This document shows, piece by piece, positions 7,421-47,710 of a DNA stretch of 58,737 bases. Origin of the DNA: a virus; the IMG/VR virus record IMGVR_UViG_3300000968_000001, positions 1-58,737 of that record, one strand, 5' to 3'. The notes beneath the pieces are model-generated. The model was given only the letters and a program-made list of their open reading frames with translations. It had not been told where the DNA came from and did not search any database. The first letter of the stretch is position 1. The number at the start of each line of letters is the position of its first letter. Both the position numbers and the translations under genes were made by a program.

Positions 7421-7422
7421 TT

Positions 7423-8124
7423 ATGGAGCCGATTAAAACAATACTATCAAGAAAGCCATATTTCAGATGTGCGGATAGAAAGAACCGCAAGGTTACGGAT
7501 TGCTTAGTGCGTGGTCGCCCTACAGAGGATTACTGGAGTGTTAAGTTCGTATTGAATGGCGTTCCTTATGAAACACCGAAAGGGAGGTGGAAAGAATCAA
7601 TAGAGTTAATGCGTGATGTATTAATTGTTAATGGCGTAAAGGATGCTGAATTAATCGCAGGCACATCGTGCAACTACGATTGGTTGATTAAGTCAAAGAA
7701 AGAGAATCAGTTAGTCGATCCAGAAACGCTTTTAAACTCCAGTGAGTTAGTCAACTTAACGATTACTCAAGGAGTGGTTACTGTGGAGAAAGAAGAACGT
7801 GAATTTAAAAGCCCTGATTTCTGGGGTGCGATTGACTGGCAGTATATGGGAATGGAGTTAGGATTCGATGACGTGACGGTAAGCAGCTTTAAGTCATTAA
7901 TCAATCGTGAGGCTCGAAAGCTTAATCCAGCACTTAATCCTAGCCGTGGATGTGAAACGTGCTATGGTCATTGGCTAGAGGCTATTAAAGGGTATAATCA
8001 CACAGTTACTACAGTTGATGGCGCGAGGAAGTGGCTATGGGAAACACACAACGAGGTTAACAAGCGGGAAGGGAAAGAAATCTTCTCATGGGACGATGCA
8101 GTTAAGCAATACGGATGGGATTAA
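7423..8124 (+). CDS. Erv1/ALR-family FAD-linked sulfhydryl oxidase-like protein (C-terminal domain) with an unknown N-terminal domain
   Basis: GCETCYGHWLEAIKGYNHTVTTVDGARKWLWETHNEVNKREGKEIFSW shows CxxC, then W..HNEVN...GK..F, as in ALR (PCEECAEDLRK...WLCHLHNEVNRKLGKPDF). Confidence 0.7.
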   Translation: MEPIKTILSRKPYFRCADRKNRKVTDCLVRGRPTEDYWSVKFVLNGVPYETPKGRWKESIELMRDVLIVNGVKDAELIAGTSCNYDWLIKSKKENQLVDPETLLNSSELVNLTITQGVVTVEKEEREFKSPDFWGAIDWQYMGMELGFDDVTVSSFKSLINREARKLNPALNPSRGCETCYGHWLEAIKGYNHTVTTVDGARKWLWETHNEVNKREGKEIFSWDDAVKQYGWD

Positions 8125-8125
8125 T

Positions 8126-8428
8126 ATGGAGGAAATGAAGGTGAAGGAGTTTAGTGTATGTAATGCGGATTATTTCTTAAAGCAGATTACTGGGGATGAA
8201 GTTGCAAAATTTAGGCTGAATGGGTCAAAACTCATTCCTATTTACCCATTCATGTATAGCGAAGGATTAGAGTATAAGAAACTCAAGAGATTAGAGTATG
8301 GCTCAGAATTAATGATCGTGAGTAATCCTGATTATAATAAGAAAAGAGAAAGTGATGACCTAGTATATTGCTTAACTTACCGAAAAGAAAGCGACACCTT
8401 GGTTAGTGGATACCTAGTGAGGGATTAA
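8126..8428 (+). CDS. Hypothetical protein (100 aa)
   Basis: ORF 8015..8428; the ATG at 8126 follows the upstream stop by 1 nt. Confidence 0.55.
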   Translation: MEEMKVKEFSVCNADYFLKQITGDEVAKFRLNGSKLIPIYPFMYSEGLEYKKLKRLEYGSELMIVSNPDYNKKRESDDLVYCLTYRKESDTLVSGYLVRD

Positions 8429-8429
8429 T

Positions 8430-8606
8430 ATGGATATATCAGAACAGGAAGACGCGCTCTACAATGAGCTTTACGCTATGATTATGAGGTTCAGTTCAAC
8501 GAATGGAGAGTTTGACCCAACTGCATACCAAGCAATCGGAGCAATGGAGAAAGTTAAAATAGACCTACTTACCGATTGGGATGTAGTCCACGAAGACTTT
8601 GAATAA
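8430..8606 (+). CDS. Hypothetical protein (58 aa, MDISEQEDALYNELYAMIMRF...)
   Basis: ATG 1 nt after the upstream TAA; below the track cutoff; followed by a strong hairpin. Confidence 0.45.
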   Translation: MDISEQEDALYNELYAMIMRFSSTNGEFDPTAYQAIGAMEKVKIDLLTDWDVVHEDFE

Positions 8607-8610
8607 AAAA

Positions 8611-8641
8611 CAGGTAGCGTCACCCCAAGAAACGCTACCTG
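8611..8641. terminator. 10-bp hairpin (caggtagcgt/acgctacctg) between the TerL operon and the portal
   Basis: Perfect 10-bp stem and 11-nt loop; A6 upstream but only a weak T tract downstream. Confidence 0.4.
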
Positions 8642-8724
8642 TTAAACAATGAATATAACAACAGAACACGAAGTAATATTGATATGCGTAATTAAAGCAC
8701 ACACATAAAAAGAAGTCAAACCAA

Positions 8725-8748
8725 AAGCACGCTGTGAAGCGTCCTGAA
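8725..8748 (+). promoter_or_regulatory. Conserved 24-mer AAGCACGCTGTGAAGCGTCCTGAA, copy 2
   Basis: Exact repeat of 5393..5416; its last A is the A of the portal ATG. Confidence 0.7.
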
Positions 8749-11051
8749 TGATGAAAACAAAAATAAAAACCAAGTCACGGTTCTTTAAGTCTATTGAAGA
8801 AATCGAAAGGAAGCGCGAGCAGTATGATACTGTTGAAAAGCAAAGAGAGAGAAGATTCTTAAACGCAGTTCAGCGATTCTTTGCTGGGCTATCACAATTA
8901 CAGCAGAAGTATAAGCTCTCAGAGTGCGATGAAGAGGATGAGATTACGAATTACTTGATCGGATTCCCACTAATCCAAGCGCACAGAGATCAATACGCTG
9001 ATATGTTCAATGGCACAAATCGCCTCGTGCAGGTTCATTGCGTCAATACAGGGGATGTTAATCAAGAGGATCGTGACGGGAGAATCATCACGGAGGAGTT
9101 TAACAAACATATCATTAATTACGGCAAGGAAATTCCTAACCTCCTGAAGAGGATTTGCGATGAAGAGATGTTGTGCGGAGTAGCTATCTCGGTTCTCCCT
9201 GAGACAATGGGCTACATTCCTAATATTGAGCGTGACATAATCTTTCCTGAACACACGCGAATGGAGTCGAAAGATTTATCATTCTTCTGGCGACCTGTAA
9301 ACCTCTCCACAAAAGATCTGCTAGAATACGCTAACGACCCTAATGAGGAAGATAAGGACTACATCAATAAGGAAGCGATTAAAGGACTCCTAGAAGAGAT
9401 CGAGGAGAATATCAAGAATGGCGGTCGAGGAAGTGGATTCTGGAACAATGGGCAAACAGGCTCATATACTAAAGATTATCATAATGGATATGATGAGTTC
9501 TACACAGTTCCCACAGATCGAGATCTTCCCGCTCAGTGGTATTATGAAGTTCAAGAGGACGGAAGCTTAAGCAAGACCCTATACATTGAGAATCCCAGAA
9601 ACACCAAGAGCAATACGGAGATCATGTATATCAAGGGAGATGAGAAGATTCTAGCAGAAGACCTCATCGACTTCGCGAGCGTGCAAACCATGTTTGGTGG
9701 TGACGAGTATTTAGAATCAGCAGTTGGCTACATGCAACTCATCTATAACTTTTCCCTAGAGGAGACGGAAATGATTAACCGTGCGGCTGATCATATTAAT
9801 GAAAAGTTAAATGATGCCTTTGTCTTGGACGAGAATATCACATCTAAGGATGAAGCTAACCGATATGACAGACAACACAGCAAGTATCGTCCTGCTGGAT
9901 TGATGCGAGATAAAGATATGCCACGGATGCAGGAGTCGTTCCAGCTTATGGACTGGCTATCGCGAAAGTCAGAGCAGATCACAGGCACAACCCAGAGCAA
10001 TGCCCTAACCACGGATGGAAGATTCTCAGCAGAGTTTAAGCAGCAGGTAGCAGTCAATGGGAACAAGATGAAGACACTCGCGGCTATCCGTTACCGCAAC
10101 ATGCAACACCTCTTCCGAAAGATATTTATCCACGTTCTTAGAATGTGTGATGACATGGATAGAGTCGAAGAGATTAAGCCCCATGGATGGGAAGGTGTTA
10201 AGATATTCAAGGATTGCTTAAAACGAAAAGGAGTAAACCTCAAGAAATACAGCAAGCGTCTAGGAGGTCGCTTAAAGCACCTAGAAGTCAAAATAGATAA
10301 GGTTTTAGCACCTGGCGACCCACAATCATTCGAGGTGGAATCGGAGTCATTAATGAGCTTGCTACAGCACCTAGATCCCGTGGCGAGAAACCTCGCTAAA
10401 TATAAGCTTCTAGCCTCTAGGCATGGTTCAGACCACGCTGACGAACTCATGGGTAACACCCAAAAGCTCTCTGAGGTAACGCGAGATCAAGAGGAGCTTG
10501 CTTGGCTTAAGGTCTTCAAAATTAAAGAGAAAGCGGGAACTAACCAAAATGTTGAGATCGAGAATGGAACAGTCCACCAGTTGCACGCACTGGTCATGTT
10601 CCAAGCCCTAGAAGGGATGATTAATAAGGCGCAGATGGGGAGGCCGTGGACAGGCGCAGACACCCTAGAAGCGTCAGCCATCAATAACCACGCTGTAAAC
10701 CTAATTAATGCAGTGATGGAGCAAGGCTATGAGATGGAGGCTAAAGTTCTATACGAGCAATTTCTAACCTATCAGGAGGCTATTAAACAACTCTCAGCGG
10801 TTGCTGATCAACAATCACAACAGCAATCAAGCTCAGAGGATGAAATAAGAGCACATGAGTTAGCTCTAAAGATTCAGAGACTAGAGCTAGATCGGGATAA
10901 ATTCCAACTAGCACAAGCAAACATCCAGCGACTTCAGCAGAGTAATCAACTCAATGACCAACTGAAGATTAACAAGCATCAGGCTGATAATGTCTTCAAG
11001 GCAGAGAACCTAAGAATCCAAGATAAAAACGCATCACGAAATGAACGCTAA
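8748..11051 (+). CDS. Portal protein (putative)
   Basis: 767 aa, sits between TerL and the scaffold-like gene, Gln-rich coiled-coil C-terminus. Assigned by size and synteny only. Confidence 0.6.
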   Translation: MMKTKIKTKSRFFKSIEEIERKREQYDTVEKQRERRFLNAVQRFFAGLSQLQQKYKLSECDEEDEITNYLIGFPLIQAHRDQYADMFNGTNRLVQVHCVNTGDVNQEDRDGRIITEEFNKHIINYGKEIPNLLKRICDEEMLCGVAISVLPETMGYIPNIERDIIFPEHTRMESKDLSFFWRPVNLSTKDLLEYANDPNEEDKDYINKEAIKGLLEEIEENIKNGGRGSGFWNNGQTGSYTKDYHNGYDEFYTVPTDRDLPAQWYYEVQEDGSLSKTLYIENPRNTKSNTEIMYIKGDEKILAEDLIDFASVQTMFGGDEYLESAVGYMQLIYNFSLEETEMINRAADHINEKLNDAFVLDENITSKDEANRYDRQHSKYRPAGLMRDKDMPRMQESFQLMDWLSRKSEQITGTTQSNALTTDGRFSAEFKQQVAVNGNKMKTLAAIRYRNMQHLFRKIFIHVLRMCDDMDRVEEIKPHGWEGVKIFKDCLKRKGVNLKKYSKRLGGRLKHLEVKIDKVLAPGDPQSFEVESESLMSLLQHLDPVARNLAKYKLLASRHGSDHADELMGNTQKLSEVTRDQEELAWLKVFKIKEKAGTNQNVEIENGTVHQLHALVMFQALEGMINKAQMGRPWTGADTLEASAINNHAVNLINAVMEQGYEMEAKVLYEQFLTYQEAIKQLSAVADQQSQQQSSSEDEIRAHELALKIQRLELDRDKFQLAQANIQRLQQSNQLNDQLKINKHQADNVFKAENLRIQDKNASRNER

Positions 11052-11274
11052 ACAAGAATGGCAAACTATAGATACCGCGCCAGAAGGAGAAGAAATAATC
11101 CTTCATGGGAAGAAGTGGGGAGGAGACTTTATAACGATGGTAGGGCAAATAGAAAAAATAAGAGGTTCTAGGTATATAAACCCTATTGGAGCTGATGGTT
11201 ACAATGTGGAGCCTAGTCTCGACCGTGAAAACGTAACCCACTGGATGCCTCTACCCCAACCACCGACAACTTAA
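11041..11274 (+). CDS. DUF551-like small protein
   Basis: W..IDTAPEGEEIIL...VTHWMPLPQPP pattern typical of DUF551. Confidence 0.5.
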   Translation: MNAKQEWQTIDTAPEGEEIILHGKKWGGDFITMVGQIEKIRGSRYINPIGADGYNVEPSLDRENVTHWMPLPQPPTT

Positions 11275-11275
11275 T

Positions 11276-11539
11276 ATGACAGCTAAAGAATACTTAGAAA
11301 AGAACTTAGGGGGGCTAGCTTTAAGCAAAAGCCACAACAAAGCCATTAAGATCAAAGCAATGGTAGATATAGGGTTAATCCCTGTCCTACAGGAGCTTAT
11401 CGAGGATTACACCGATATGGCAGAAACCGATAATGAGCTATGGCAAGCAAAAGGCATTGTCCGAGCATTGGGAGATATTCGCGCCCTAAACCAATACGCT
11501 CTCATGAGCCAAGACGAAGAATCTAAAAAAACTAAATAA
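11276..11539 (+). CDS. Hypothetical protein (87 aa)
   Basis: ATG ORF tightly packed in the head operon. Confidence 0.55.
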   Translation: MTAKEYLEKNLGGLALSKSHNKAIKIKAMVDIGLIPVLQELIEDYTDMAETDNELWQAKGIVRALGDIRALNQYALMSQDEESKKTK

Positions 11540-11541
11540 TC

Positions 11542-12999
11542 ATGTCAAAACATCAAGATAACAAGAACGAAGCTAGTGATGAACTCGCAAGCTTACTAGG
11601 AGAACAAGACCCTACATTTGCTATGCCTAATAACACTCAGCGTAGCACACCAAGCCCAGAAAAGGAAGAAGTGGAGGAGGTTGTAGAAGTCGAGCCAAAA
11701 CAAACTGAAGGGCTAGATGGAAATGGCATTCCGCTTTCCACGGAGCCTAGCGAGGAGATTCCATCGGATGATGATGACCTAAAGAAAGAAATCGAAGCAT
11801 TAAGTGCTGAAGAGTTTTCTGAGGAGAAGCCTAAAGAAGATGATGGAACAGACTGGTCAGAGCTAGAGGAGTTTTCCCCAGAGGATTACACCAATAAAGA
11901 AAAGATCCCCGCTATCCGAGAAGATAACCGCAAGAAGTCACTAGAAGCGAAGAGACTACGTGAAGAGAAGATTCAGTATGAGAGTCAGCTTGAGGAGTTA
12001 CAGGCTAAGGTTCAAGATTACGAACAGAAGGTTAAGAGTCAAGAGCCAGTAGTTAACGCACATGAAGATCCTGAGTGGCAGCGCATCAATACCGAGGTAG
12101 TCTCCAAAGCTAAAGCGTTTGATAACGACCTCATGCTAACTACAGGATCATCTATACCTCTCGCTTCAGGCGAAAGGTTTGAGAGTTTGTTCACTGAGTA
12201 TCAGCAGGTCAATGATGACGCACAGAGCAAGCGGGAATTCCTAATGAAAGCATCCCTAGAGCTAATGGGGAAAAGTGATTCCATCACGGATAATATCATT
12301 GATGGAGAGTGGGATATTAAATCTACGTTATCAGAGCTAGAGCCAGATGAACGAATCTCTGTAACACAGGCGATTAAGAGCTTGGATGGAGTCCTATCTT
12401 TTGCTTCAGAGTCATCCTCTAAGCTTCGTAAAATCGAGGCTGATATTAATGAGAACTCAGGCAAGTATCTAGCAGAGTCACGTATCAAGAAGTATGAGGA
12501 AAGCTCAACCAGCTTCCGTGAGTCGCTTAAGGGAGTAGGCATCTTAGATGAACAAGCGGTAGAGAGTGACCCTAACTCATTCAGCGCATTCATTCATGAG
12601 CGTATGTCCGACCCTAAGAACAAGGGGAATATCGAAAGCGCAATCAAGATGCACACGGAATATAAGCATGGTCGCCCGCAGATTAGCGAGAAGGTTTATG
12701 AGAGCTTTGAGCTTGAAGGCAAAGACCGCAAGTATGTCGATAAGATGGCTGATGAGGCGCATTCTAAGAGGGTGGCTAGCATGGATAAAGAGATTCACAT
12801 GTATCTCTCTAACCGCGAGTTAATCCAAGAAGCTGTCCGTCAATACAACAAGGCGCAGAAGAAAGCAGAACTCAAAAAGAAAGAGAAGAAGCAGGTGAGC
12901 AGCGCAGAGACATTACCTACTCGAAAGGAGTCCACATCTAAAGATTCGGGTGATGTAGACCACTTAGCCTCACTTCTTAATTTCAACCCTAGACGATAA
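11542..12999 (+). CDS. Scaffolding-like protein (acidic, coiled coil, no Cys noticed)
   Basis: Highly acidic, E/K-rich 485-aa product located between portal and capsid. Confidence 0.45.
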   Translation: MSKHQDNKNEASDELASLLGEQDPTFAMPNNTQRSTPSPEKEEVEEVVEVEPKQTEGLDGNGIPLSTEPSEEIPSDDDDLKKEIEALSAEEFSEEKPKEDDGTDWSELEEFSPEDYTNKEKIPAIREDNRKKSLEAKRLREEKIQYESQLEELQAKVQDYEQKVKSQEPVVNAHEDPEWQRINTEVVSKAKAFDNDLMLTTGSSIPLASGERFESLFTEYQQVNDDAQSKREFLMKASLELMGKSDSITDNIIDGEWDIKSTLSELEPDERISVTQAIKSLDGVLSFASESSSKLRKIEADINENSGKYLAESRIKKYEESSTSFRESLKGVGILDEQAVESDPNSFSAFIHERMSDPKNKGNIESAIKMHTEYKHGRPQISEKVYESFELEGKDRKYVDKMADEAHSKRVASMDKEIHMYLSNRELIQEAVRQYNKAQKKAELKKKEKKQVSSAETLPTRKESTSKDSGDVDHLASLLNFNPRR

Positions 13000-13243
13000 G
13001 GGTTGACAGAGATAGTAATCATTAGCTATAACTGCTGAAGAGAAAAAAGTAAGGGTGCGCGAACATCCCCACTTTAGTTCATTAGATGAGCATTTCTCAG
13101 AACCGATCAAGCTGTAAAAACAGCCTTACTAGTTCGTTGATTATTGGCATAATCTTCAGGCTCCACACGGTTACCACTAACTTTGTGGAGTCTGTTTTAT
13201 AATTATTGACTGACTATTGATTTGTAGTATCTTAATAAAGCAA

Positions 13244-13500: not shown

Positions 13501-13561
13501 ACTACTCATCACAATTAGATTTATCTCATCAAGTTGATTCTTGGTTAGCTGAATTGTATTT

Positions 13562-13624
13562 TAACTCCGTAATATCGAAGGCTTACGTTATGCATAATCT
13601 ATTGATGTAGGTATTGCGGAGTTA
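13562..13624. other. Long hairpin (12 bp including one G-U) enclosing the palindrome TTATGCATAA
   Basis: taactccgtaat (13562-73) pairs with attgcggagtta (13613-24); the inner 10-nt perfect palindrome is at 13588-13597. Confidence 0.4.
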
Positions 13625-13732
13625 TGACACTGGGAAAGACTAGATTAAATGCTATTCCAGAGAATCCCGACTCATAATCGATGCGAAGAACTCTTTAATG
13701 TGGGAGTCATTAGATTAGCTCCATAATGAATC

Positions 13733-13805
13733 ATTCCTGTAGCTCAATGGTTAGAGCGGGCGACTCATAATCGCTAGGTTCTCGGTTCAAGTCCGAGCGG
13801 GAGTA
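13733..13805 (+). tRNA. tRNA with anticodon CAT (elongator Met, or Ile2 if lysidine-modified)
   Basis: Hand-folded cloverleaf: acceptor ATTCCTG/CGGGAGT, D arm GCTC-AATGGTTA-GAGC, anticodon arm GGCGA-CTCATAA-TCGCT, T arm CTCGG-TTCAAGT-CCGAG, discriminator A; no encoded CCA. Confidence 0.85.
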
Positions 13806-13812
13806 TCCTAAA

Positions 13813-13852
13813 GCGCATGTGGCCAAGTGGTTAAGGCGGAGGTTTGCAAAAC
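13813..13852 (+). pseudogene. Truncated tRNA-Cys(GCA) 5' half (acceptor to anticodon loop + 2 nt)
   Basis: GCGCATG-TG-GCC-AAGTGGTTAA-GGC-G-GAGGT-TTGCAAA-AC, after which homology stops. No ACCTC partner, T arm or 3' acceptor follows locally. Confidence 0.6.
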
Positions 13853-13868: not shown

Positions 13869-14339
13869 ATGAAGAAATTGAAATTTTACAAAAGGATCAG
13901 AGTCGATGGAAAGACAGTCCTTGAGCATAGGCACTTGATGGAGGTCAGTATAGGGAGAAAATTAAAAACCTTAGAGCATGTCCACCATAAGGATGGAGAT
14001 ATATTTAATAATGATCTGAGTAACTTGGAAGTTTTGAGCGCATCTGATCACGCTAGATTACACTTTACAAAAACTAACAAGACTTATTCAAAATGCGAAC
14101 TTTGTGATGAGGTGTGTGATGGCTCAAGGAGGTTTTGTGGCGTAAAGTGCTTTGACTTATGGAGGTCGAGCCTTATTCCAGATAAGGAGACTATAGTATC
14201 AGACCTCCTTTCTAGCGAGACATTTACATCACTAGGCAAGAAGCACGGAGTTAGTTGTAACGCATTCAGGAAGTGGTGTGTAAAGTATGGCTTGCCTAGC
14301 AGACTCAAAGAGAGGAAGCATTGGGTATTATCTCATTAA
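13869..14339 (+). CDS. HNH homing-type endonuclease
   Basis: LEHRHLME...LEHVHHKDGDIFNNDLSNLEVLSASDHARLH (HNH_3-like) plus a C-terminal Cys/HTH-like region; sits between the tRNA-Cys half and the full tRNA-Cys. Confidence 0.85.
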   Translation: MKKLKFYKRIRVDGKTVLEHRHLMEVSIGRKLKTLEHVHHKDGDIFNNDLSNLEVLSASDHARLHFTKTNKTYSKCELCDEVCDGSRRFCGVKCFDLWRSSLIPDKETIVSDLLSSETFTSLGKKHGVSCNAFRKWCVKYGLPSRLKERKHWVLSH

Positions 14340-14346: not shown

Positions 14347-14426
14347 GCGTGTGTGCCTGAGTGGTCTAAAGGGTTCGATTGCAAATCGAATATTATTCGT
14401 GAGTTCAAATCTCTCCATGCGCTCCA
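14347..14426 (+). tRNA. tRNA-Cys (anticodon GCA) with encoded CCA
   Basis: Acceptor GCGTGTG/CATGCGC (two G-U pairs), D arm CCT-...-AGG with GG in the loop, anticodon arm TTCGA-TTGCAAA-TCGAA, T arm GTGAG-TTCAAAT-CTCTC (one T-T mismatch), unusual 8-nt variable region, T + CCA. Confidence 0.75.
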
Positions 14427-14435: not shown

Positions 14436-14456
14436 ATTAAACTGATTGTGGCTACA
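14436..14456 (-). promoter_or_regulatory. Conserved 21-mer, copy 2 (reverse orientation), 8 nt upstream of the TTGACA of the capsid promoter
   Basis: attaaactgattgtggctaca is the exact reverse complement of TGTAGCCACAATCAGTTTAAT. Confidence 0.7.
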
Positions 14457-14464: not shown

Positions 14465-14493
14465 TTGACAAAACCGCATCAATAGTTTATAAG
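14465..14493 (+). promoter_or_regulatory. Sigma70-like promoter TTGACA-N17-TATAAG for the capsid-like gene
   Basis: Consensus -35, 17-nt spacer, 5/6 -10, followed by a roughly 200-nt hairpin-rich leader before the ATG at 14698. Confidence 0.5.
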
Positions 14494-14697
14494 GGGTATT
14501 CAAGGCTTACGAACTCCCTATTCCAAAGGGAGCAACTGCATAAGAAATAAAGAGAACTTGGCGTAGATGGATCAGCCACCATCCTCAACACATTTCAAAG
14601 CGGTGGATAGGGTTAGCATACTATCTGGAAAAGGAAATTAGAAACCAATCGGGAAATCCGTTTGGTAAACTTATTTAATCTTAAACCAGATAGAAAA

Positions 14698-16638
14698 ATG
14701 TCAGAAATTTGCTACGATAAAATCCCTGCGGCTATTTACGCCGACAAAGAAAGAAACCAACGATTCTTAATGGATCGTGAAAGAGCCAAGTGGTCTGAGA
14801 CAGATGTTCTCGATAAAGTGGCTTTCCAAGGCCAAATCTCACCTACTACAAACCTAAACATCGTCAAGATGTCTAAGTCTATGGCTTGTCCAGTAGGGTT
14901 TAGTGAAAAGAACTACCAACTAGAGGAGTGCCAACCAGACAATTACGAAGTAGGAACACAAACAGGACGAACTAATTGCGGAGGTGACTCAGAATGCGCT
15001 ACGCAAGAAACCTTAGTTACAAAGAAAGATGGTTCATGTCGCCCTGAGATGTGCGAGATTCCATACGCTCAAGGACACCGCGTTATTGAGCCTTTTGATT
15101 GGAAAGGAGCATTTAAGTCTCAGACCATGTGCGCTGAAGAACTTTATAACCACGGAGGATCACAACACCTTTATGATTACAATGAGGCCGTAAAAGAGCA
15201 CTTCTCTGATTGGCTTACATATAACTATCAGATGAACCTCCTTAACGAGCTTGGGTTGCGTGCAGAATCAAACTCCTCGGAAGGTTGGTCAAATAACGGA
15301 TCAGTTGCATCTAAATACACTTGGCACGGAAAACCTAAAGGTTACCTGTCTATCTCACACCTTAAGCAGTTGCGTAAAGTACTTCATATCAGAGGTGGAC
15401 TAAATGAAGGAAAACTTCGCCTAGAAGGCCCGATGGAGGACTTTATTCGCGCTATCCAAGACTACGAATGCAATGTTCTCGGCAAGCAGTTCTGTGATGT
15501 TTCTTATAACCGTGTCCAATACGAAGATAAAGAAGGAATGCTTCGCGGTCGTGAATACATCGAGTACGAAGGGATTTGCTACTACCGTAATGAATATCCA
15601 CGTAAAGCAATCTGGATCCAGAAAGGTAAATCAGCTTCACTTAAGTATATCTATCCATATGTTGACTCAACAGAAGCGGCTGAAGTCGGATTAATGAAGG
15701 AGGATAACGATGAATACTACGGTGAGTATGTTTACTGTGATGGGTCGTATCACGACCTTATCACAATCTATGATTTCATTCACCCGATGTCATCTAAACG
15801 CTGGACTCTCGATAAACCTATTAACCCTGAGAGTGACAACACCTCAACAGGACTTGAGCTTCACGTAGCTAAAGAGTGGCAAATTCCTTGCAATATCAAT
15901 AAGGATAAGTGGTTCTACTACTCACGCCCTCGTATGAGACACCTCGTTGAATACCCAGAGCATCTAGGCTTCCACCTTGCACTATCACGTGATACAGGCG
16001 GCGGGGAAATTGTTGTTACCACCAAAACATCCAGAATTCCAACTGACAATACCAAGTGCGGAATTCCAACAGTGCCACCTAAGTATGATACATGCGCTGA
16101 TGATGGTTCATGCGCTGAGTGTGATGACACAACTACTTGTGAGGCAGTAACGGCGAGCATCGTTCCATGCCCTAATAAGGAGCTATACTATGAAGGAGTG
16201 TTTGCTGACGGTGACACGCAAGAAGCGGCATACCGCATTGAACTATCTGCACCAGCGTGTGAGGATGGAACAATCGACTACGCCTTCGTTGATGGTGATG
16301 CAGTATTCGGAACTAACTACGATGTAGCTAGTGGCCAAACTGGAACAATTAACGTTGTCGCGGGAGATGCTGAAATCGTAGTGCCATTCACCGTTCTAGG
16401 AGTTGATCCTGACGCTGACGGCGATGCAGATCCAGCAACTATCTCTAAAGTATCTGGAACACTCACTCTCACAGGAGCAACTGGAGGAGTAGAGCTTGCA
16501 ACAGATTGCGTAGAGTCCACCTTCTGCATTATCGATAACTCTAGCGAGTGCGGTAGTGAAGAGTGTGGCGCGGATGCTGATTGCCCTAACTGCACAGGAA
16601 CAGGAAGCGCAGTAGGAGGCGGAACAACAAATCCTTAA
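14698..16638 (+). CDS. Putative major capsid protein with a Cys/Asp-rich C-terminal extension
   Basis: A single gene bracketed by a strong promoter and terminator, downstream of portal and scaffold. About 26 Cys by hand count. No fold-level evidence. Confidence 0.5.
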   Translation: MSEICYDKIPAAIYADKERNQRFLMDRERAKWSETDVLDKVAFQGQISPTTNLNIVKMSKSMACPVGFSEKNYQLEECQPDNYEVGTQTGRTNCGGDSECATQETLVTKKDGSCRPEMCEIPYAQGHRVIEPFDWKGAFKSQTMCAEELYNHGGSQHLYDYNEAVKEHFSDWLTYNYQMNLLNELGLRAESNSSEGWSNNGSVASKYTWHGKPKGYLSISHLKQLRKVLHIRGGLNEGKLRLEGPMEDFIRAIQDYECNVLGKQFCDVSYNRVQYEDKEGMLRGREYIEYEGICYYRNEYPRKAIWIQKGKSASLKYIYPYVDSTEAAEVGLMKEDNDEYYGEYVYCDGSYHDLITIYDFIHPMSSKRWTLDKPINPESDNTSTGLELHVAKEWQIPCNINKDKWFYYSRPRMRHLVEYPEHLGFHLALSRDTGGGEIVVTTKTSRIPTDNTKCGIPTVPPKYDTCADDGSCAECDDTTTCEAVTASIVPCPNKELYYEGVFADGDTQEAAYRIELSAPACEDGTIDYAFVDGDAVFGTNYDVASGQTGTINVVAGDAEIVVPFTVLGVDPDADGDADPATISKVSGTLTLTGATGGVELATDCVESTFCIIDNSSECGSEECGADADCPNCTGTGSAVGGGTTNP

Positions 16639-16651
16639 TCCATAACAACTA

Positions 16652-16683
16652 AGAGCGGGGGTAACCCCTCCGCTCTTTCTTTA
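16652..16683 (+). terminator. Rho-independent terminator after the capsid-like gene
   Basis: agagcggggg-taa-cccctccgctct followed by ttctttaac. Confidence 0.6.
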
Positions 16684-16705
16684 ACCTTTTAAAATTATAT
16701 ATACG

Positions 16706-17956
16706 ATGGCTACTTTTGAATACTTCTTAGACGGATGCTTACCAGACTGTGATTCTGGGGTATTTATTTTCCAACTAGCAACACAGAGCAATATTAGTAA
16801 TTATCCTTCTGAGATAGACATGGTGGTGACTGCCACTGATGATATTATCGTAAACGGAAAGGCATTAAAGAGATACACCCTAAGCTTTGATGAAACACTA
16901 ATTTTCCCTTTAGGTCGCCTTAGTGTTTGCGACCTCAAACAAGATGAAGGAGGCTTTCATGGCTCGCCTTCATGCAAGATTTGCGCTACAAACTGCGAAC
17001 TTGAGGGTGATATAGCAGCGATAAACCAACTCCTTTTAGACAGTGGGATTATATCTGATACATTTATCTATATTGAGAACGCTGACGGGAGCATCACTTA
17101 CACAAATAGTGATGGGACTATTACGGGTATTATTCCAGCATCAGCAGGATTATCCGTTGATTCAGACGGTAATCTAGTTGATTCAGGCGGCACTATTATT
17201 GCAGCTTCTGGAGAGGAGGCCAATATAGCTACAACGATTGATACGGAAGGAAATGTGTCACTCTTGATTAACGGAGTTGAAGCTCATACAGTAACTCACT
17301 GCGAATTGACGGCAAAATGCTTATCTGATCAATCTTTCGCTGAAGACTTAGCTGAGACACTAGAGAAGCATATTGAGATTGAAGACCTTGGGACAACTGC
17401 TCCTGAAGGATCAACCTATGTTTCTGATGGGTCAGGCGGTTTAATCGCAGTGCAAAACGCAGTATATAATAGTCTACCTTCCACCAATCGAGGCAGTGTC
17501 ATTGTAAGCAACCATGATGGATGTATTCGATCATATTACTGGGATGGCAGTGCTTATATTGCAGTCCCTAATGATACATCCGAAGAGTTCGAGGGAGTGC
17601 TTATCTACAGTTCGTCTGGGTTACAAACCGAAACGGTAACCATCCCCACACACTCAGCCTACGCTCCAACTAAAGGGGTTCCAGTAGCGGCTATTGTGCA
17701 ACTAAGAGCCTATGTTAATACTAATGACGGGATTAGCAATGCCAACGCTTCAATCTACAGGACGGCTACAGGATTAAACTCAGGGGCGCGTGCCGCTACC
17801 GCGGTTGCTGATAACGGAAGGCAGTTTGATACTAACGAAGTACGTATCCCTCTAACATCAGCAGGGAACGTCATACTAACATCTACTACTGCGAGCCCTA
17901 TTGGTGGCGCAGGTCAAGCTGATACGGTCGCTTATCTAATCGGCTACAAGTACTAA
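16706..17956 (+). CDS. Tail fibre/spike protein, paralogue 1 (shared N-terminal anchor domain)
   Basis: The first ~100 aa are roughly 60% identical by eye to the N-terminus of 18428..21133, and the C-termini are unrelated. Confidence 0.55.
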   Translation: MATFEYFLDGCLPDCDSGVFIFQLATQSNISNYPSEIDMVVTATDDIIVNGKALKRYTLSFDETLIFPLGRLSVCDLKQDEGGFHGSPSCKICATNCELEGDIAAINQLLLDSGIISDTFIYIENADGSITYTNSDGTITGIIPASAGLSVDSDGNLVDSGGTIIAASGEEANIATTIDTEGNVSLLINGVEAHTVTHCELTAKCLSDQSFAEDLAETLEKHIEIEDLGTTAPEGSTYVSDGSGGLIAVQNAVYNSLPSTNRGSVIVSNHDGCIRSYYWDGSAYIAVPNDTSEEFEGVLIYSSSGLQTETVTIPTHSAYAPTKGVPVAAIVQLRAYVNTNDGISNANASIYRTATGLNSGARAATAVADNGRQFDTNEVRIPLTSAGNVILTSTTASPIGGAGQADTVAYLIGYKY

Positions 17957-17975
17957 CCCTTAACTAATTTAAAAT

Positions 17976-18419
17976 ATGTCAGAATTAAAATATAGAGGCG
18001 GAGTTGCTTACACATGGGGTGAGTCAACGCAGACGGAAGCAGAGTTCACTTCATCACTCAACGAGTATGTATCAAATTACATTAAACAATTTGGCACAGA
18101 GCCAGATTACGTGGACGGAAACAATAAGCCAGAAAAAGCGATTATTGACGAAGCGTTAGCCGCTTATAAATCGCTACAAGCTGAACAAGCACCAGTTGAA
18201 TTCACTATCCCTAGTGCAATCCTCAGGCCATCGCGAGAAGAGTTCGTTAATGAAGTCTACACGCTCGTAACTGAGGGACAAACAATTGGAACCGTAGCAG
18301 TATCACCTATTAATGAGGGAGAATTGGTAAAAGTATCAATAATTAAAAAAGCGTATAACGCACTAACGGACGAACGCAAATCCGAGATAGCTGAATTAGC
18401 TAAGAAATTTGCTCAATAA
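17976..18419 (+). CDS. Hypothetical virion-module protein (147 aa)
   Basis: ATG ORF between the two fibre paralogues. Confidence 0.5.
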   Translation: MSELKYRGGVAYTWGESTQTEAEFTSSLNEYVSNYIKQFGTEPDYVDGNNKPEKAIIDEALAAYKSLQAEQAPVEFTIPSAILRPSREEFVNEVYTLVTEGQTIGTVAVSPINEGELVKVSIIKKAYNALTDERKSEIAELAKKFAQ

Positions 18420-18427
18420 CTAAAAAC

Positions 18428-21133
18428 ATGGCCACATTTAAATATTTACTAGACGGGTGTTTACCAGATTGTGATTCTGGTGTATTCACATTTCAACTAC
18501 TTAGTCAATCAGGCATCACAGGATTCCCTACAGAGATTGATATGCAACTCGTATCTACGGGTGAGACATACGTAAACGGGAAGAAGGTAAAGGAATACAC
18601 CTTTGACTTCGACCTTTCGCTTATTGCGCCACTAGAACGACTTAACTTATGTGACCTAGAACAAGATCCAGATGGTCTCCACGGATTTCCTACATGCAAA
18701 GTATGCGCGTCAACGTGCGAACTTGAGGAGCGTGTAGAAATTCTCGAAGCAAAGGTTGACGAGAATACTCGTTATGACTTTAACTTCACTCGCAGTGGGG
18801 ACAATCTAGTATATACAGCAACGCCCAACGATGGAGGTGCACCTTATACTCAGACCATCCAAGATGTGTTTGTAGATACAGATACGCTCGATGTGTCTCA
18901 ATTTAGTGGAACTGTGAGCAATGGTATTGTTACTATTAACCATTCATCAGGCGGCAATAGTTCAAACATTCAATTCCCCCTCGGAGTATCAAGTGTAGCT
19001 ACTAACTCTAACCCAGATGGTTCAACAACTATTACTTATGTAGATGGAGAAGGCAATACACAAACAGCGGGTGTAATCCCAACAGGTAGTGAAAGCTCTG
19101 TTTTAACTACAACAAACGCTAATGGTTCAGTTACTTATACGCATGATGCAGGAAATGGGGACGCGCCAGTAAGTTGGACAGTGTTCCCGCCAACTATTGA
19201 CACCAACTGTTGCACAACAGATTTAAGACTTAATCCGACAGGAGGAGTAGCTGGAACGCCAGTATATGAGGCGGAGATTACGGATTTAATCAGCGGGGCT
19301 GCAAGCGTCATAGCTGCACCTGCGGGAGTTTCTAGTGATGCTAACAACTCACTCACAGTGGGAGCTGATGGATTACCTTATTACAACGATGTCGATATTG
19401 TTACTGAAGTGACTCAAAACGCCAGTGGTGCATGGGAGGTTACTGAGAATGGAGTCTTAGTAGAGACTATTACGGACACGACTATTGCAGACACTAATAC
19501 CAATGCTAGTATTGTTAATAACGCAGACGGCACGGTAACAATTACGAATGATGCAGGTCAAACTTGGACAAGCGGAGTTACTGCATCATCTGGATGTCCT
19601 GATACATTCGCATCTATTACAGATGAAGATGCTCGTAACGTATCAGCTTCGGGTTGCGGTGACGACATCACCCTCCACAGAACGCTTAACGTAGGGGATG
19701 AGCATACAAGCTCAACTGGAAATGGGGATATTAGCGTTGCATCATTGGACTCTAATCATAGCGCGAGCGGTGGGGTTGTAGGAGTAACTACAGATCACAA
19801 CACTCTAATCGCAAACTCATTAAGCTCAACAGCTACAGGAGCAGGATCTACAGTGGTTAGCTCATGGGAATCTACAGCATCTGGCGTAAACTCCTTTGTT
19901 GCATCATCAACTTTCAGCACGTCCGTGACAGGTAATTTCTCTACAGCTATCAACGCTGGCAGCGGGTTAAATGAAGGAGATTATTCATCGATTTACGGAT
20001 GGCGAGCATTCAACTATGGTGACGGATCATTCGTAAACGGAGGCAATAGATATGTAGGCACTGGATCTTCCGCTGAAAATAGGCTTAATGGTTCTTTTGT
20101 TTACGGAAGAGATGCTAAAAATTTGAATACTGGAGATTACACATTCACGCGGAATAATTTTCTATTCGGAGATAATTCTTTTGTAGATAACAATTTAAAT
20201 TCAGTCTGTTTTGGTGCTACAATTGAATCTGGAGGGAGTCATAATTTTGCATTTGGAAATAATTCAACAATAAGCTTAGCTAGCGGAACCACCTCATCAA
20301 CTGGGGCGACACTAACAGGTGCAAACCAAGCGATTGGGTCTCAAATAACTATCGAGATAGACACCCTTAATGACACTGAGCTTGACTCAAGAGCTGGGGA
20401 TGGGGGCTTAGGAAGATCGACAGGTCTTGGCTATGCTCATTTAATTGAGTCATCCCAAGCAACCTCAATAGGTTACAGAGGCCATGTTTTACCAGGTCAT
20501 AGAAACGCAATGGTCTTAAGTGGGAACAATCAGGCTTCATCGCCACCCACTACATCGACAGGTCTAGCCACCTTGACAGCACTATTTCCGGGAGGATATA
20601 CCTTCTGGACAAATAATGCTCAAACGGTAGGGGTGACACTTACTGGTTCTGGATGGGTATCAACATCTACTAGAGATTCTAAAAAGAACTTCGCAGATGT
20701 AGGAAGTGTGATTGAAGCGGTGGAGAACACTCTCCCTAAAGCGGAATCATGGCAGTATGACGCCGAACTCACTAAGGTGGTAGGGGTAGAAGAAGTGGAA
20801 TACGAATACACTGATATTGACGAATCCATTCAAAGGGAAATTGAAGAACTGGAATCAGAGAGTGCAGATACGAGCGAAAAGCGAAAAGAGTTATCTGAAA
20901 GACTCAAAATAACAAAGAAGGTTACAAGAAAGAAAAACATCATTTCTGAGGAGCAGCCAATATTTATTGGGTATATGGCTGAAGACTTCTCGAAACTAGG
21001 ATATGGATCATCTACGCAAGGCATCGAACCCTTGCAACTTGCAACCATAGCACTAGAATACGCAAGGGAGGTTAAATATATTAATGATGAATTAACATCT
21101 AGGATTGAAAAGCTTGAAAATACCATTAAGTAA
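18428..21133 (+). CDS. Tail fibre with a C-terminal intramolecular chaperone (peptidase S74-like) domain
   Basis: Shared N-terminal domain, Gly/Ser/Thr/Asn-rich repetitive body, ...STRDSKKNFADVG... and a C-terminal coiled coil (LQLATIALEYAREVKYINDELTSRIEKLENTIK) typical of auto-cleaving chaperone domains. Confidence 0.65.
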   Translation: MATFKYLLDGCLPDCDSGVFTFQLLSQSGITGFPTEIDMQLVSTGETYVNGKKVKEYTFDFDLSLIAPLERLNLCDLEQDPDGLHGFPTCKVCASTCELEERVEILEAKVDENTRYDFNFTRSGDNLVYTATPNDGGAPYTQTIQDVFVDTDTLDVSQFSGTVSNGIVTINHSSGGNSSNIQFPLGVSSVATNSNPDGSTTITYVDGEGNTQTAGVIPTGSESSVLTTTNANGSVTYTHDAGNGDAPVSWTVFPPTIDTNCCTTDLRLNPTGGVAGTPVYEAEITDLISGAASVIAAPAGVSSDANNSLTVGADGLPYYNDVDIVTEVTQNASGAWEVTENGVLVETITDTTIADTNTNASIVNNADGTVTITNDAGQTWTSGVTASSGCPDTFASITDEDARNVSASGCGDDITLHRTLNVGDEHTSSTGNGDISVASLDSNHSASGGVVGVTTDHNTLIANSLSSTATGAGSTVVSSWESTASGVNSFVASSTFSTSVTGNFSTAINAGSGLNEGDYSSIYGWRAFNYGDGSFVNGGNRYVGTGSSAENRLNGSFVYGRDAKNLNTGDYTFTRNNFLFGDNSFVDNNLNSVCFGATIESGGSHNFAFGNNSTISLASGTTSSTGATLTGANQAIGSQITIEIDTLNDTELDSRAGDGGLGRSTGLGYAHLIESSQATSIGYRGHVLPGHRNAMVLSGNNQASSPPTTSTGLATLTALFPGGYTFWTNNAQTVGVTLTGSGWVSTSTRDSKKNFADVGSVIEAVENTLPKAESWQYDAELTKVVGVEEVEYEYTDIDESIQREIEELESESADTSEKRKELSERLKITKKVTRKKNIISEEQPIFIGYMAEDFSKLGYGSSTQGIEPLQLATIALEYAREVKYINDELTSRIEKLENTIK

Positions 21134-21146
21134 TATTATCATTTTT

Positions 21147-47677: not shown

Positions 47678-47710
47678 TGGTAGCACTGAGTGGATTTGAA
47701 CCACCGAATC
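47678..47710 (-). other. attP candidate: tRNA 3'-end fragment (T arm + acceptor + CCA)
   Basis: Minus strand reads gattcGGTGG-TTCAAAT-CCACT-CAGTGCT-A-CCA. There is no matching 5' acceptor (AGCACTG) within 100 nt, so it is not a full tRNA. It lies about 200 nt upstream of int. Confidence 0.6.

What the first reader, a model, noticed from the sequence alone, without database searches (positions are those of the whole stretch)
14347..14426. Phage-borne tRNA-Cys(GCA) placed directly upstream of the Cys-rich capsid gene
The phage carries only two intact tRNAs, and one of them is tRNA-Cys. Cys is normally a rare residue, so a tRNA-Cys is not an obvious choice for a phage. It becomes logical if late translation has an unusually high demand for UGC/UGU codons, as the Cys-rich virion proteins imply. 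The gene sits about 270 nt upstream of the capsid-like ORF. The link to the oxidase and Cys-rich theme is inference.
Basis: inference. Interest (0 to 1): 0.6.

Follow-up and report, generated by a model that had tools for sequence, protein, structure and literature searches.

The report
Phage tRNA-Cys rebuilt by homing endonuclease
An uncultured temperate phage of Verrucomicrobia carries a real cysteine tRNA gene just upstream of its cysteine-rich capsid gene, but the gene is a patched-together accessory inside a small mobile endonuclease island that seven related, equally cysteine-rich phages lack, so it is a likely helper and not a built-in part of the capsid system.

Summary
ARAGORN and Rfam (52.5 bits, cut-off 29) call a tRNA-Cys(GCA) at 14347-14423, with CCA encoded to 14426. 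It is one of only two tRNAs in this complete 58.7-kb phage. It lies 271 nt before an ORF that folds as an HK97 major capsid protein with a Calx-beta domain and 4.0% Cys.

The context changes the reading. The tRNA closes a small island: promoter-like site, tRNA-CAU, a truncated host-like tRNA-Cys 5' half, an HNH endonuclease gene, then this tRNA-Cys. Its 3' acceptor strand pairs perfectly with the truncated half, but only through two G·U pairs with its own 5' strand. It also has a U50·U64 mismatch and an 8-nt variable loop. It therefore looks like a chimera made when the HNH cassette invaded an older phage tRNA-Cys.

Seven relatives keep the same TerL-Erv1-portal-capsid order and six of the seven have Cys-rich capsid proteins (1.6-4.4%), yet none has a tRNA there.

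The demand idea keeps some support. Cys is the amino acid most over-used against candidate Verrucomicrobiales hosts (1.25-1.68 fold). Capsid Cys codons have shifted to TGC in this phage only (p = 0.0014).

Verdict: a real, probably functional accessory tRNA. The demand link is plausible but unproven. The earlier scan had already noted the HNH and half-tRNA arrangement.

The parts
13003..13032 (+). Sigma-70-like promoter site P1 (TTGACA-N18-TATAAC), directly after the stop of the Cys-free 485-aa gene and upstream of the tRNA island
   Evidence: One of only two matches to TTGACA-N16-18-TATAAB in the window (0.12 expected). No terminator-like site was found between here and the capsid gene.
13733..13805 (+). 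tRNA with anticodon CAU, called Met by ARAGORN but probably tRNA-Ile2, which reads AUA after lysidine modification
   Evidence: ARAGORN and Rfam at 64.9 bits. It aligns best with the host CAU tRNA class that is neither the initiator nor the attB tRNA. The Ile2 assignment rests on my own knowledge of E. coli ileX and is untested.
13813..13852 (+). Truncated 5' half of an older, host-like tRNA-Cys(GCA): acceptor strand GCGCAUG, D arm with A13:A22, loop UUGCAAA. It breaks off 2 nt into the 3' anticodon stem.
   Evidence: Sequence read. Positions 8-40 are nearly identical to the tRNA-Cys of Verrucomicrobiales MAGs.
13869..14339 (+). HNH endonuclease gene (156 aa), a free-standing homing-type nuclease
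   Evidence: PHROG 15471, E 8.7e-23, plus 11 further HNH PHROGs. Pfam HNH_3 is precomputed for it and its homologs. Its nearest homolog (40% identity) lies 127 nt from a tRNA-Ile(TAT) gene.
14347..14426 (+). tRNA-Cys(GCA), 77 nt plus encoded CCA, apparently chimeric. This is the finding.
   Evidence: ARAGORN and Rfam at 52.5 bits. Its structure class matches host and phage tRNA-Cys genes. The best GenBank phage matches are annotated tRNA-Cys.
14444..14456 (+). Copy of a repeated 13-mer (GATTGTGGCTACA) between the tRNA and the capsid promoter site; a possible regulator binding site
   Evidence: Five exact copies in the window against 0.02 expected.
14465..14493 (+). Sigma-70-like promoter site P2 (TTGACA-N17-TATAAG) in front of the capsid gene and downstream of the tRNA
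   Evidence: A similar site lies in the short gap of relative L001.
14698..16638 (+). Major capsid protein: HK97 fold plus a C-terminal Calx-beta domain, 646 aa, 26 Cys (18 TGC, 8 TGT)
   Evidence: AlphaFold2 model with mean pLDDT 70.3. Foldseek hits to the capsid proteins of phages Moo19, Bas63, N4, phi29 and Sf14, and to Calx-beta domains (E 1e-8 to 1e-6). Twenty-one Cys are invariant across three close sequences.
7423..8124 (+). Erv1/Alr-type sulfhydryl oxidase gene, context for the Cys theme
   Evidence: Pfam PF04777, E 8e-10. Pfam-detected at the same position in relatives L046 and L062, with a faint hit in L045.
47678..47707 (-). attP core: 30 nt identical to the 3' end of a host tRNA-Met(CAT) gene, next to the integrase gene (46281-47477, minus strand)
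   Evidence: Exact match in three Verrucomicrobiales/Akkermansiaceae MAGs. Integrase Pfam hit.

Best explanation
The feature is a genuine and probably functional tRNA-Cys(GCA) gene of a temperate phage whose likely host is in the Verrucomicrobiales (Akkermansiaceae-like).

It is not a fixed partner of the capsid gene. It is the last element of a roughly 1.4-kb accessory island that only this phage has, between the scaffold-like gene and the capsid gene. The island runs: promoter-like site, tRNA-CAU, remnant of an older tRNA-Cys, HNH endonuclease gene, tRNA-Cys.

The present gene looks like a chimera. An HNH cassette travelling with the 5' two-thirds of a different tRNA-Cys allele invaded the phage's earlier host-like tRNA-Cys near the anticodon stem and recombined again within the T loop. 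That left the old 5' half upstream and the old 3' strand in the new gene. The gene was therefore restored, not destroyed.

It is probably transcribed from the promoter-like site at 13003, which is of the same type as the capsid promoter. The transcript would be processed to a mature tRNA that already carries CCA, then charged by host CysRS through U73, GCA and the 13:22 and 15:48 core. The tRNA would add to a host supply that comes from a single gene, at the time when the 4%-Cys capsid and the 2.7-4.5%-Cys tail proteins are made.

Shown: the gene, its structure, the island, the remnant, its absence in relatives, and the Cys and TGC statistics. Inferred: the chimeric origin, expression, charging, and any benefit.
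For: tRNA gene:
- ARAGORN and Rfam at 52.5 bits.
- All universal tertiary positions, U73 and CCA are present.
- It has the same D-loop type (AGUGGUCUA), a purine-purine 13:22 pair, G15:C48 and a UAUUC variable core as host tRNA-Cys and ten other phage tRNA-Cys genes.

Island and chimera:
- HNH gene.
- Truncated half at 13813-13852, nearly identical to host tRNA-Cys at positions 8-40.
- The 3' acceptor strand CAUGCGC pairs 7 of 7 Watson-Crick with the remnant's GCGCAUG. With the gene's own GCGUGUG it gives U4·G69 and G5·U68.
- The T stem is GUGAG/CUCUC, with a U·U mismatch. Other phages with GUGAG have CUCAC.
- The two 5' halves are only about 68% identical, and the anticodon stems differ with compensating changes.
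- An independent assembly is identical.
- The nearest HNH homolog also sits beside a tRNA gene.

Accessory status:
- No tRNA in seven relatives' loci with the same gene order.
- The intergenic gap is 1,698 nt here against 236-256 nt in the two relatives with the shortest gaps, L001 and L046.

Demand:
- Cys ranks 1, 3 and 1 of 20 amino acids by phage/host ratio. TGC ranks 4, 8 and 2 of 61 codons.
- The block 14698-32783 has 2.36% Cys and the capsid protein 4.0%, against host ORF medians of 0.87-1.27%.
- One tRNA-Cys gene was found per host MAG.
- Capsid Cys codons are 18 TGC and 8 TGT here against 28 and 57 summed over four relatives, p = 0.0014, with no higher GC3.

Expression: only two TTGACA-N16-18-TATAAB sites exist in the window and they flank the island. 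No terminator-like site lies between them.
Against: - No expression or charging data exist.
- The tRNA has the lowest Rfam score of the tRNA-Cys genes compared (52.5 bits against 54-69). It also has an unusual 8-nt variable loop and a T-stem mismatch, so it could be impaired.
- Relatives with equal or higher Cys content manage without a tRNA in 30.4 kb of a 40.9-kb contig. Cys-rich virions therefore do not need one.
- The whole-proteome Cys excess over the host is modest and its bootstrap interval includes 1 (0.95-1.83).
- Host assignment rests on a 30-nt attP match to three MAGs. Only 7,600-30,000 codons per MAG were sampled.
- No donor allele was found in viral or metagenome contigs, so the chimeric history is inferred from this one sequence.
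- The promoter sites are consensus matches only.
Confidence: 0.55

Rival explanations
1. Selfish hitch-hiker with little or no benefit. The tRNA-Cys is only the homing site and flanking cargo of the HNH endonuclease. It is kept because the cassette spreads by gene conversion, not because the phage needs more Cys-tRNA. The chimeric product may be weakly functional or decaying.
For: - HNH gene, remnant half and chimeric features.
- Lowest Rfam score among the tRNA-Cys genes compared.
- No tRNA in seven relatives that are just as Cys-rich.
- The nearest HNH homolog is also next to a tRNA gene.
- Published precedent: T4 SegB spreads the tRNA gene region (PMC2330249), and HNH genes occur in mycobacteriophage tRNA clusters (PMC6409571).
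Against: - A tRNA-Cys existed in this phage before the HNH event, as the remnant shows, and the event restored a complete gene.
- All universal positions, U73 and CCA are intact.
- Both acceptor changes are wobble-compatible.
- Cys is the amino acid that differs most from the host, and capsid Cys codons shifted to TGC only in this phage. Neither is predicted by neutrality.
Confidence: 0.27
2. Counter-defence spare part. The phage tRNA-Cys replaces or outlasts host tRNA-Cys that a host anticodon or variable-loop nuclease cuts during infection. Its diverged anticodon stem and longer variable loop would make it resistant.
For: - The anticodon stem (UUCGA/UCGAA against host GAAGU/ACUUU) and the variable loop (8 nt against 5 nt) differ from the host tRNA-Cys, while the identity elements are kept.
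- tRNA-cutting defences and phage tRNA escape are documented. One example is Septu cutting the variable loop of tRNA-Tyr, with SegB amplifying the tRNA locus (PMC13096335).
- From my own knowledge, M. tuberculosis VapC4 cuts tRNA-Cys.
Against: - The 7-nt anticodon loop is identical to the host's.
- No tRNA-Cys-specific defence is known for Verrucomicrobia, and none was sought here.
- The relatives lack the tRNA.
- The differences from the host tRNA are equally well explained by a foreign donor allele.
Confidence: 0.1
3. Integration or lysogeny function. The tRNA would serve as an attachment site, or would compensate for a host tRNA gene disrupted on integration (tRNA-dependent lysogeny).
For: The phage is temperate: it has an integrase and an attP core. 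tRNA-dependent lysogeny is a described phenomenon (PMC10865867).
Against: - attP lies next to the integrase gene, 33 kb away. It matches a tRNA-Met gene, not tRNA-Cys.
- The attP core carries the full 30-nt 3' end including CCA, so integration rebuilds the host gene.
- The phage tRNA-Cys has no long identity to the host tRNA-Cys.
Confidence: 0.03

Closest known systems
Phage-encoded tRNAs that match codons used more by the phage than by the host (the codon-compensation model; for example the T4 tRNA cluster and the Sf14 study, PMC12482277)
   Same: A tRNA gene sits in a phage genome. The matching amino acid and codon are among those most enriched in the phage over its candidate host. The second tRNA (CAU, probably reading AUA) fits the pattern for two of the three host proxies.
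   Different: The mismatch is at the level of the amino acid. Cys has a single isoacceptor, so no rare-codon issue arises. The excess appears to come from Cys-rich virion proteins in a lineage that encodes an Erv1 oxidase. Most described cases are virulent phages with many tRNAs. This is a temperate phage with two.
T4 SegB and the T-even tRNA gene region (intronless homing of a free-standing endonuclease inside a tRNA cluster, PMC2330249; also PMC13096335)
   Same: A free-standing homing-type endonuclease gene lies between tRNA genes. There are signs of gene conversion of flanking tRNA sequence: a chimeric tRNA and a displaced remnant.
   Different: The nuclease is of the HNH family, not GIY-YIG. 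Cleavage was not tested. A truncated copy of the target tRNA remains beside the cassette, and the restored gene is a hybrid of two alleles. To my knowledge this is not described for SegB.
HNH endonuclease genes within mycobacteriophage tRNA arrays (Cluster M; cited in PMC6409571)
   Same: An HNH gene is embedded among phage tRNA genes and is thought to drive diversity in the tRNA repertoire.
   Different: Those arrays hold dozens of tRNAs. This island has two tRNAs and one remnant, in a different host phylum and an unrelated phage lineage.
Bacterial tRNA-Cys of the candidate hosts (Verrucomicrobiales MAGs, loci L012, L014, L017)
   Same: GCA anticodon, UUGCAAA loop, U73, encoded CCA, a 9-nt D loop AGUGGUCUA, a purine-purine 13:22 pair, G15:C48 and a UAUUC variable core.
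   Different: The acceptor, D, anticodon and T stems all differ. The variable loop has three extra bases (UAU). There is one T-stem mismatch and two G·U acceptor pairs. The Rfam score is about 15 bits lower.

Membership tests
tRNA (Rfam RF00005), isotype Cys | Cloverleaf that scores above the family threshold | tested here: met
   52.5 bits against a cut-off of 29, covering the full model 1-71. ARAGORN makes the same call.
tRNA (Rfam RF00005), isotype Cys | Anticodon GCA in a 7-nt loop with U33 and A37 | tested here: met
   The loop is UUGCAAA, identical to the host tRNA-Cys loop.
tRNA (Rfam RF00005), isotype Cys | CysRS identity elements: discriminator U73, and the tertiary core at 13:22 and 15:48 (my own knowledge of E. 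coli tRNA-Cys studies) | tested here: met
   U73 is present, with G13:A22 and G15:C48. The host genes have U73, A13:A22 and G15:C48. Whether the host CysRS accepts it was not testable.
tRNA (Rfam RF00005), isotype Cys | Regular class I geometry: a 4-5 nt variable loop and fully paired stems | tested here: not met
   The variable loop is 8 nt (UAUUAUUC). There is a U50·U64 mismatch and two G·U pairs in the acceptor stem. These lower the score but do not exclude function.
tRNA (Rfam RF00005), isotype Cys | Expressed, processed and aminoacylated with Cys | not testable with these tools
   Needs tRNA-seq, a northern blot or a charging assay.
Codon- or amino-acid-compensating phage tRNA | The cognate codons are used more by the phage than by the host | tested here: met
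   The Cys ratio is 1.49, 1.25 and 1.68 against three candidate host MAGs. TGC ranks 4, 8 and 2 of 61 codons. The bootstrap interval of the pooled ratio is 0.95-1.83, so the support is moderate.
Codon- or amino-acid-compensating phage tRNA | The trait goes together with the demand across related phages | tested here: not met
   Seven relatives, six of them with Cys-rich capsid proteins (1.6-4.4% across the seven) and three with a Pfam-detected Erv1 gene (faint in a fourth, L045), show no tRNA in the loci available. All of these contigs are partial.
Homing endonuclease cassette in a tRNA region (SegB-like intronless homing) | A free-standing endonuclease ORF of a homing family next to the target gene | tested here: met
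   The HNH ORF is at 13869-14339. It begins 17 nt after the remnant and ends 7 nt before the tRNA.
Homing endonuclease cassette in a tRNA region (SegB-like intronless homing) | A footprint of gene conversion or insertion in the target | tested here: met
   There is a truncated tRNA-Cys half. The acceptor and T-stem strands of the full gene come from two different alleles. This is inferred from one genome.
Homing endonuclease cassette in a tRNA region (SegB-like intronless homing) | Site-specific cleavage of the cassette-free allele and resistance of the carrier allele | not testable with these tools
   Needs an in vitro cleavage assay or a co-infection cross.

The most novel reading that the evidence does not exclude
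The tRNA-Cys is the translational part of a phage-encoded cysteine and disulfide package. In a lineage that builds disulfide-rich virions with its own Erv1 oxidase, this phage has also acquired, and after an endonuclease hit regained, a tRNA-Cys that raises Cys decoding capacity in late infection. Its capsid gene has shifted its Cys codons to the perfectly matching UGC in response. This would be a phage tRNA selected for amino-acid demand and not for rare-codon demand.
Probability: 0.3. Interest if true: 0.6.

Novelty: new member of a known kind. Interest (0 to 1): 0.4.

Why it matters
Why phages carry tRNAs is still debated. The candidate reasons are codon compensation, escape from tRNA-cutting defences, and selfish spread with homing endonucleases. 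This locus shows the first and third together: a tRNA for the amino acid that the phage over-uses most, inside an endonuclease island that visibly rebuilt it. If a benefit were shown, it would tie a phage tRNA to the unusual disulfide-rich virion and Erv1 oxidase of this lineage. It would also be a case of compensation for an amino acid, not for a codon. If no benefit were shown, the locus is a clean natural example of intronless homing that leaves a hybrid tRNA and a remnant. The work also gives a likely host (Verrucomicrobiales) for a phage lineage with almost no database relatives.

Tried and rejected
- A free-energy fold of the 80-nt sequence gave a z-score of -0.76 and a partly wrong fold. 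This is uninformative for a tRNA, so I relied on covariance and ARAGORN models.
- Searches of GenBank phages with 3.6 kb around the tRNA found only tRNA-sized matches.
- PHROGs and Pfam gave nothing for the large structural proteins.
- Pattern-based searches of IMG/VR found no relatives with the capsid protein, the capsid family alignment (too divergent), the HNH protein or an Erv1 alignment.
- Exact searches for the putative donor allele (22-mer across the anticodon arm) found nothing in viral or metagenome contigs.
- The intergenic regions of the relatives are too diverged to map the island's borders by alignment.
- The Logan and ENA relatives could not be searched as whole records.
- A group I intron or split-tRNA reading (5' half + intron with HNH + 3' half) was rejected. 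The remnant's anticodon stem GAGGU has no ACCUC partner downstream, the downstream gene has its own complete anticodon arm, and Rfam finds no intron family.
- An attP role for tRNA-Cys was rejected, because attP lies by the integrase gene and matches a tRNA-Met.
- A type II tRNA (Tyr or Ser) origin, suggested by the D arm, was dropped once host and other phage tRNA-Cys genes showed the same D arm.

Full report
**1. Is the tRNA there?**

Yes. ARAGORN reports two tRNA genes in the window: tRNA-Met(CAT) at 13733-13805 and tRNA-Cys(GCA) at 14347-14426. Rfam's tRNA model matches 14347-14423 over its full length at 52.5 bits, against a cut-off of 29. The window is a complete virus record of 58,737 bp with direct terminal repeats. 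A search of that record finds the same two genes, so "only two intact tRNAs" is correct.

The Rfam alignment gives the following layout:
- acceptor stem GCGUGUG/CAUGCGC, with pairs U4·G69 and G5·U68
- D stem CCUG/AAGG, with a G13:A22 pair
- D loop AGUGGUCUA
- anticodon stem UUCGA/UCGAA
- anticodon loop UUGCAAA
- variable loop of 8 nt, UAUUAUUC
- T stem GUGAG/CUCUC, with a U50·U64 mismatch
- T loop UUCAAAU
- discriminator U73 and an encoded CCA

All universal tertiary positions are present. An independent Logan assembly is 100% identical over 6,402 bp that include the whole region. The arrangement is therefore not an artefact of one assembly.

**2. What lies downstream?**

The ORF begins at ATG 14698, 271 nt after the tRNA. 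It encodes 646 aa with 26 Cys (4.0%). HMMER against 1.8 billion representative proteins found a family of roughly 600-aa proteins. It also found many hits to repeated domains at residues 500-600.

An AlphaFold2 model built on a 28-sequence alignment has a mean pLDDT of 70.3 and a long spine-like helix. Foldseek matches it to HK97-fold capsid proteins of phages Moo19, Bas63, N4, phi29 and Sf14. Its C-terminal part matches Calx-beta domains, with E-values from 1e-8 to 1e-6.

**3. What lies upstream changes the picture**

An ORF at 13869-14339, between the two tRNAs, is an HNH endonuclease (PHROG 15471, E 8.7e-23).

Positions 13813-13852 read as follows: acceptor strand GCGCAUG, UG, D stem GCCA, D loop AGUGGUUA, AGGC, G, anticodon stem GAGGU, loop UUGCAAA, then AC. 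After that the sequence turns into A-rich spacer, 17 nt before the HNH start codon. This half is nearly identical at positions 8-40 to the tRNA-Cys genes of three Verrucomicrobiales MAGs.

The full gene downstream is only about 68% identical to the half over the shared 41 positions. Its anticodon stem is different and carries compensating changes.

Three details point to a hybrid:
- The 3' acceptor strand CAUGCGC is a perfect Watson-Crick partner of the remnant's GCGCAUG. It pairs with the gene's own GCGUGUG only through two wobbles.
- The 5' T-stem strand GUGAG is paired with CUCAC in other phage tRNA-Cys genes (L039, L041). Here it faces CUCUC, which gives the single mismatch.
- All three imperfections fit one junction within the T loop. 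Positions 1 to about 50 would come from one allele and positions from about 64 to the 3' end from the allele to which the remnant belonged.

The simplest history has three steps. The phage first had a host-like tRNA-Cys. An HNH cassette, travelling with the 5' part of another tRNA-Cys allele, then entered near position 40. Repair finally crossed back within the T loop. This history is inferred. I found no donor allele in viral or metagenome collections.

The extra UAU in the variable loop is absent from the 12 other tRNA-Cys genes aligned.

The nearest homolog of the HNH protein (40% identity) also lies 127 nt from a tRNA gene, a tRNA-Ile(TAT), in two contigs. This fits a nuclease family that lives beside tRNA genes. 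Published parallels are T4 SegB (PMC2330249) and the HNH genes in mycobacteriophage tRNA arrays (PMC6409571).

**4. Is the position a lineage feature?**

No. The capsid protein has only two close homologs among 5.8 billion proteins (68% and 51% identity) and a wider family at 17-31% identity. I fetched contigs for seven relatives:

| Locus | Cys in capsid protein |
|---|---|
| L001 | 4.4% |
| L002 | 3.6% |
| L045 and L047 (30.4 kb of a 40.9-kb contig) | 3.95% |
| L046 | 1.6% |
| L061 | 3.55% |
| L062 and L063 | 3.5% |
| L064 | 3.6% |

Where enough sequence is present, the order is the same: large terminase-like gene, Erv1 oxidase (Pfam-detected in L046 and L062, faint in L045), portal-like gene, a Cys-free gene of about 450 aa, a gap, then the capsid gene. 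ARAGORN finds no tRNA in any of these loci.

The gap before the capsid gene is 236-256 nt in L046 and L001 (310-505 nt in the other relatives where it can be measured), against 1,698 nt in the window. Twenty-one of the 26 capsid Cys are invariant across the three close sequences. The structural module of L047 has 1.97% Cys. Cys-rich virions in this lineage therefore do not need a tRNA-Cys at this site, and the island is an accessory of this phage. All of these contigs are partial, so a tRNA elsewhere in those genomes cannot be excluded.

**5. Host**

The phage has an integrase gene at 46281-47477 on the minus strand. Beside it lies the 3' end of a tRNA (lead from note e1-3276232). A 25-mer of that sequence matches exactly three genomes among 185,579 species: one Akkermansiaceae MAG and two uncultured Verrucomicrobiales MAGs. 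In each, the match is the 3' end of a tRNA-Met(CAT) gene. Identity runs for 30 nt, through CCA, and then stops. This is the classic attP/attB pattern.

Each MAG yielded one tRNA-Cys gene. These genes have the same unusual D loop, 13:22 purine pair, U73 and CCA as the phage copies. That supports both the host assignment and the Cys identity.

The same D-loop type also occurs in tRNA-Cys genes of ten IMG/VR contigs, mostly within large tRNA arrays. The best GenBank phage matches are annotated tRNA-Cys of Yersinia jumbo phages.

**6. Does demand fit?**

I compared long ORFs from 150 kb of the three MAGs (7,600-30,000 codons each) with the phage ORFs.

| Measure | Phage | G001 | G002 | G003 |
|---|---|---|---|---|
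| Cys content, first ORF sample | 1.60% | 1.12% | 1.24% | 0.96% |
| Phage/host Cys ratio | n/a | 1.49 | 1.25 | 1.68 |
| Rank of Cys among 20 amino acids by ratio | n/a | 1 | 3 | 1 |
| Rank of TGC among 61 codons by ratio | n/a | 4 | 8 | 2 |

The pooled Cys ratio has a bootstrap interval of 0.95-1.83, so the genome-wide excess is modest.

The excess is concentrated in one part of the genome. The block 14698-32783 has 2.36% Cys, against 0.86% in 5402-12999 and 0.07% in 32786-41063. The capsid protein, at 4.0%, lies above the 90th percentile of host ORFs in all three MAGs.

An unexpected point concerns codon choice. Capsid Cys codons are 18 TGC and 8 TGT here. The four relatives without a tRNA have 9/19, 9/14, 7/17 and 3/7 (Fisher p = 0.0014). 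GC3 of the capsid gene is not higher here (0.39 against 0.33-0.50), and the other Y-ending codon pairs show no such shift. This fits stronger translational selection on Cys codons in the phage that carries the tRNA. A difference in host preference could also explain it.

The second tRNA resembles the host CAU tRNA class that is neither the initiator nor the attB tRNA. From my memory of E. coli ileX it looks like tRNA-Ile2. ATA ranks 2nd and 3rd in phage/host ratio for two MAGs, but 25th for the third.

**7. Expression context**

The pattern TTGACA-N16-18-TATAAB occurs only twice in the window, with 0.12 expected. One site is at 13003-13032, just after the stop of the 485-aa gene. The other is at 14465-14493, just after the tRNA-Cys. 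Relative L001 has one similar site in its short gap. No terminator-like site lies between the two in the window.

The tRNA is therefore upstream of the capsid gene's own promoter-like site, not inside its leader. It could be transcribed from a promoter of the same type, and so at the same time. This is inference from consensus matches.

A 13-mer repeated five times in the genome lies between the tRNA and the second promoter site.

**8. Verdict**

The tRNA is real, intact in all identity features, and matches the amino acid that the phage over-uses most. It is also an accessory, endonuclease-associated and apparently hybrid gene that seven relatives lack.

My estimates are:
- 0.55 that it is a working accessory tRNA adding to Cys-tRNA supply
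- 0.27 that it is essentially selfish cargo of little use
- 0.10 that it serves against a tRNA-cutting defence
- 0.03 that it serves integration

It is a new member of known kinds: a phage tRNA, and a homing endonuclease in a tRNA region. Two details are of interest: the visible hybrid-plus-remnant footprint, and the possible link to a disulfide-rich virion.

Noticed in passing
window 13733-13805: The tRNA called Met(CAT) has an elongator-type acceptor stem (A1-U72, C4-G69, C5-G68) and the anticodon arm GGCGA-CUCAUAA-UCGCU. It aligns best with the host CAU tRNA class that is neither the initiator nor the attB tRNA. It is probably tRNA-Ile2, which reads AUA after lysidine modification. ATA ranks 2nd to 3rd of 61 codons in phage/host ratio for two host proxies and 25th for the third.
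   Followed up: partly
window 14698-16638, compared with L001, L002, L045 and L046: Capsid Cys codons are 69% TGC in this phage and 29-39% in four relatives that show no tRNA (Fisher p = 0.0014). GC3 is not higher here, and the other Y-ending codon pairs show no similar shift.
   Followed up: partly
window 13003-13032 and 14465-14493: The only two matches in the genome to TTGACA-N16-18-TATAAB flank the tRNA/HNH island. The close relative L001 has a single similar site in its short gap. The island may have been inserted with, or beside, a duplicated late promoter.
   Followed up: partly
window 13561-13625: A 65-nt hairpin scores 42.0 bits against Rfam DUF3800-VIII RNA (cut-off 40.2), just upstream of the tRNA-CAU. 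This is a borderline hit and its meaning is unknown.
   Followed up: no
window 4061-4073, 14444-14456, 43876-43888, 47598-47610, 55386-55398: The 13-mer GATTGTGGCTACA occurs five times exactly (0.02 expected), always intergenic. One copy is next to attP and one is between the tRNA-Cys and the capsid promoter site. It is a likely regulator binding site.
   Followed up: partly
window 47678-47707 (minus strand); L003, L004, L005: The 30-nt attP core is identical to the 3' end of a tRNA-Met(CAT) gene in one Akkermansiaceae and two Verrucomicrobiales MAGs. This gives a likely host clade for a phage lineage with almost no database relatives.
   Followed up: yes
window 11542-12999, 32786-39945; L045 7837-9144; L046 8400-9764; L001 2737-4176: The gene just upstream of the island (485 aa) and its homologs in three relatives have no Cys at all. 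The same holds for three consecutive genes from 32786 to 39945, including one of 1,787 aa. This contrasts sharply with the neighbouring proteins at 2.7-4.5% Cys.
   Followed up: partly
L049 2235-2962; L050: The nearest homolog of the HNH endonuclease (40% identity) lies 127 nt from a tRNA-Ile(TAT) gene on the opposite strand, in two unrelated contigs.
   Followed up: partly
window 14494-14697; L001 4330-4432; L002 540-635: The roughly 200-nt leader between the capsid promoter site and the ATG contains a short motif shared with the two close relatives (TATCTGGAAAAGGAAAT-like, then 'aatcg'). It may be a conserved leader element.
   Followed up: no
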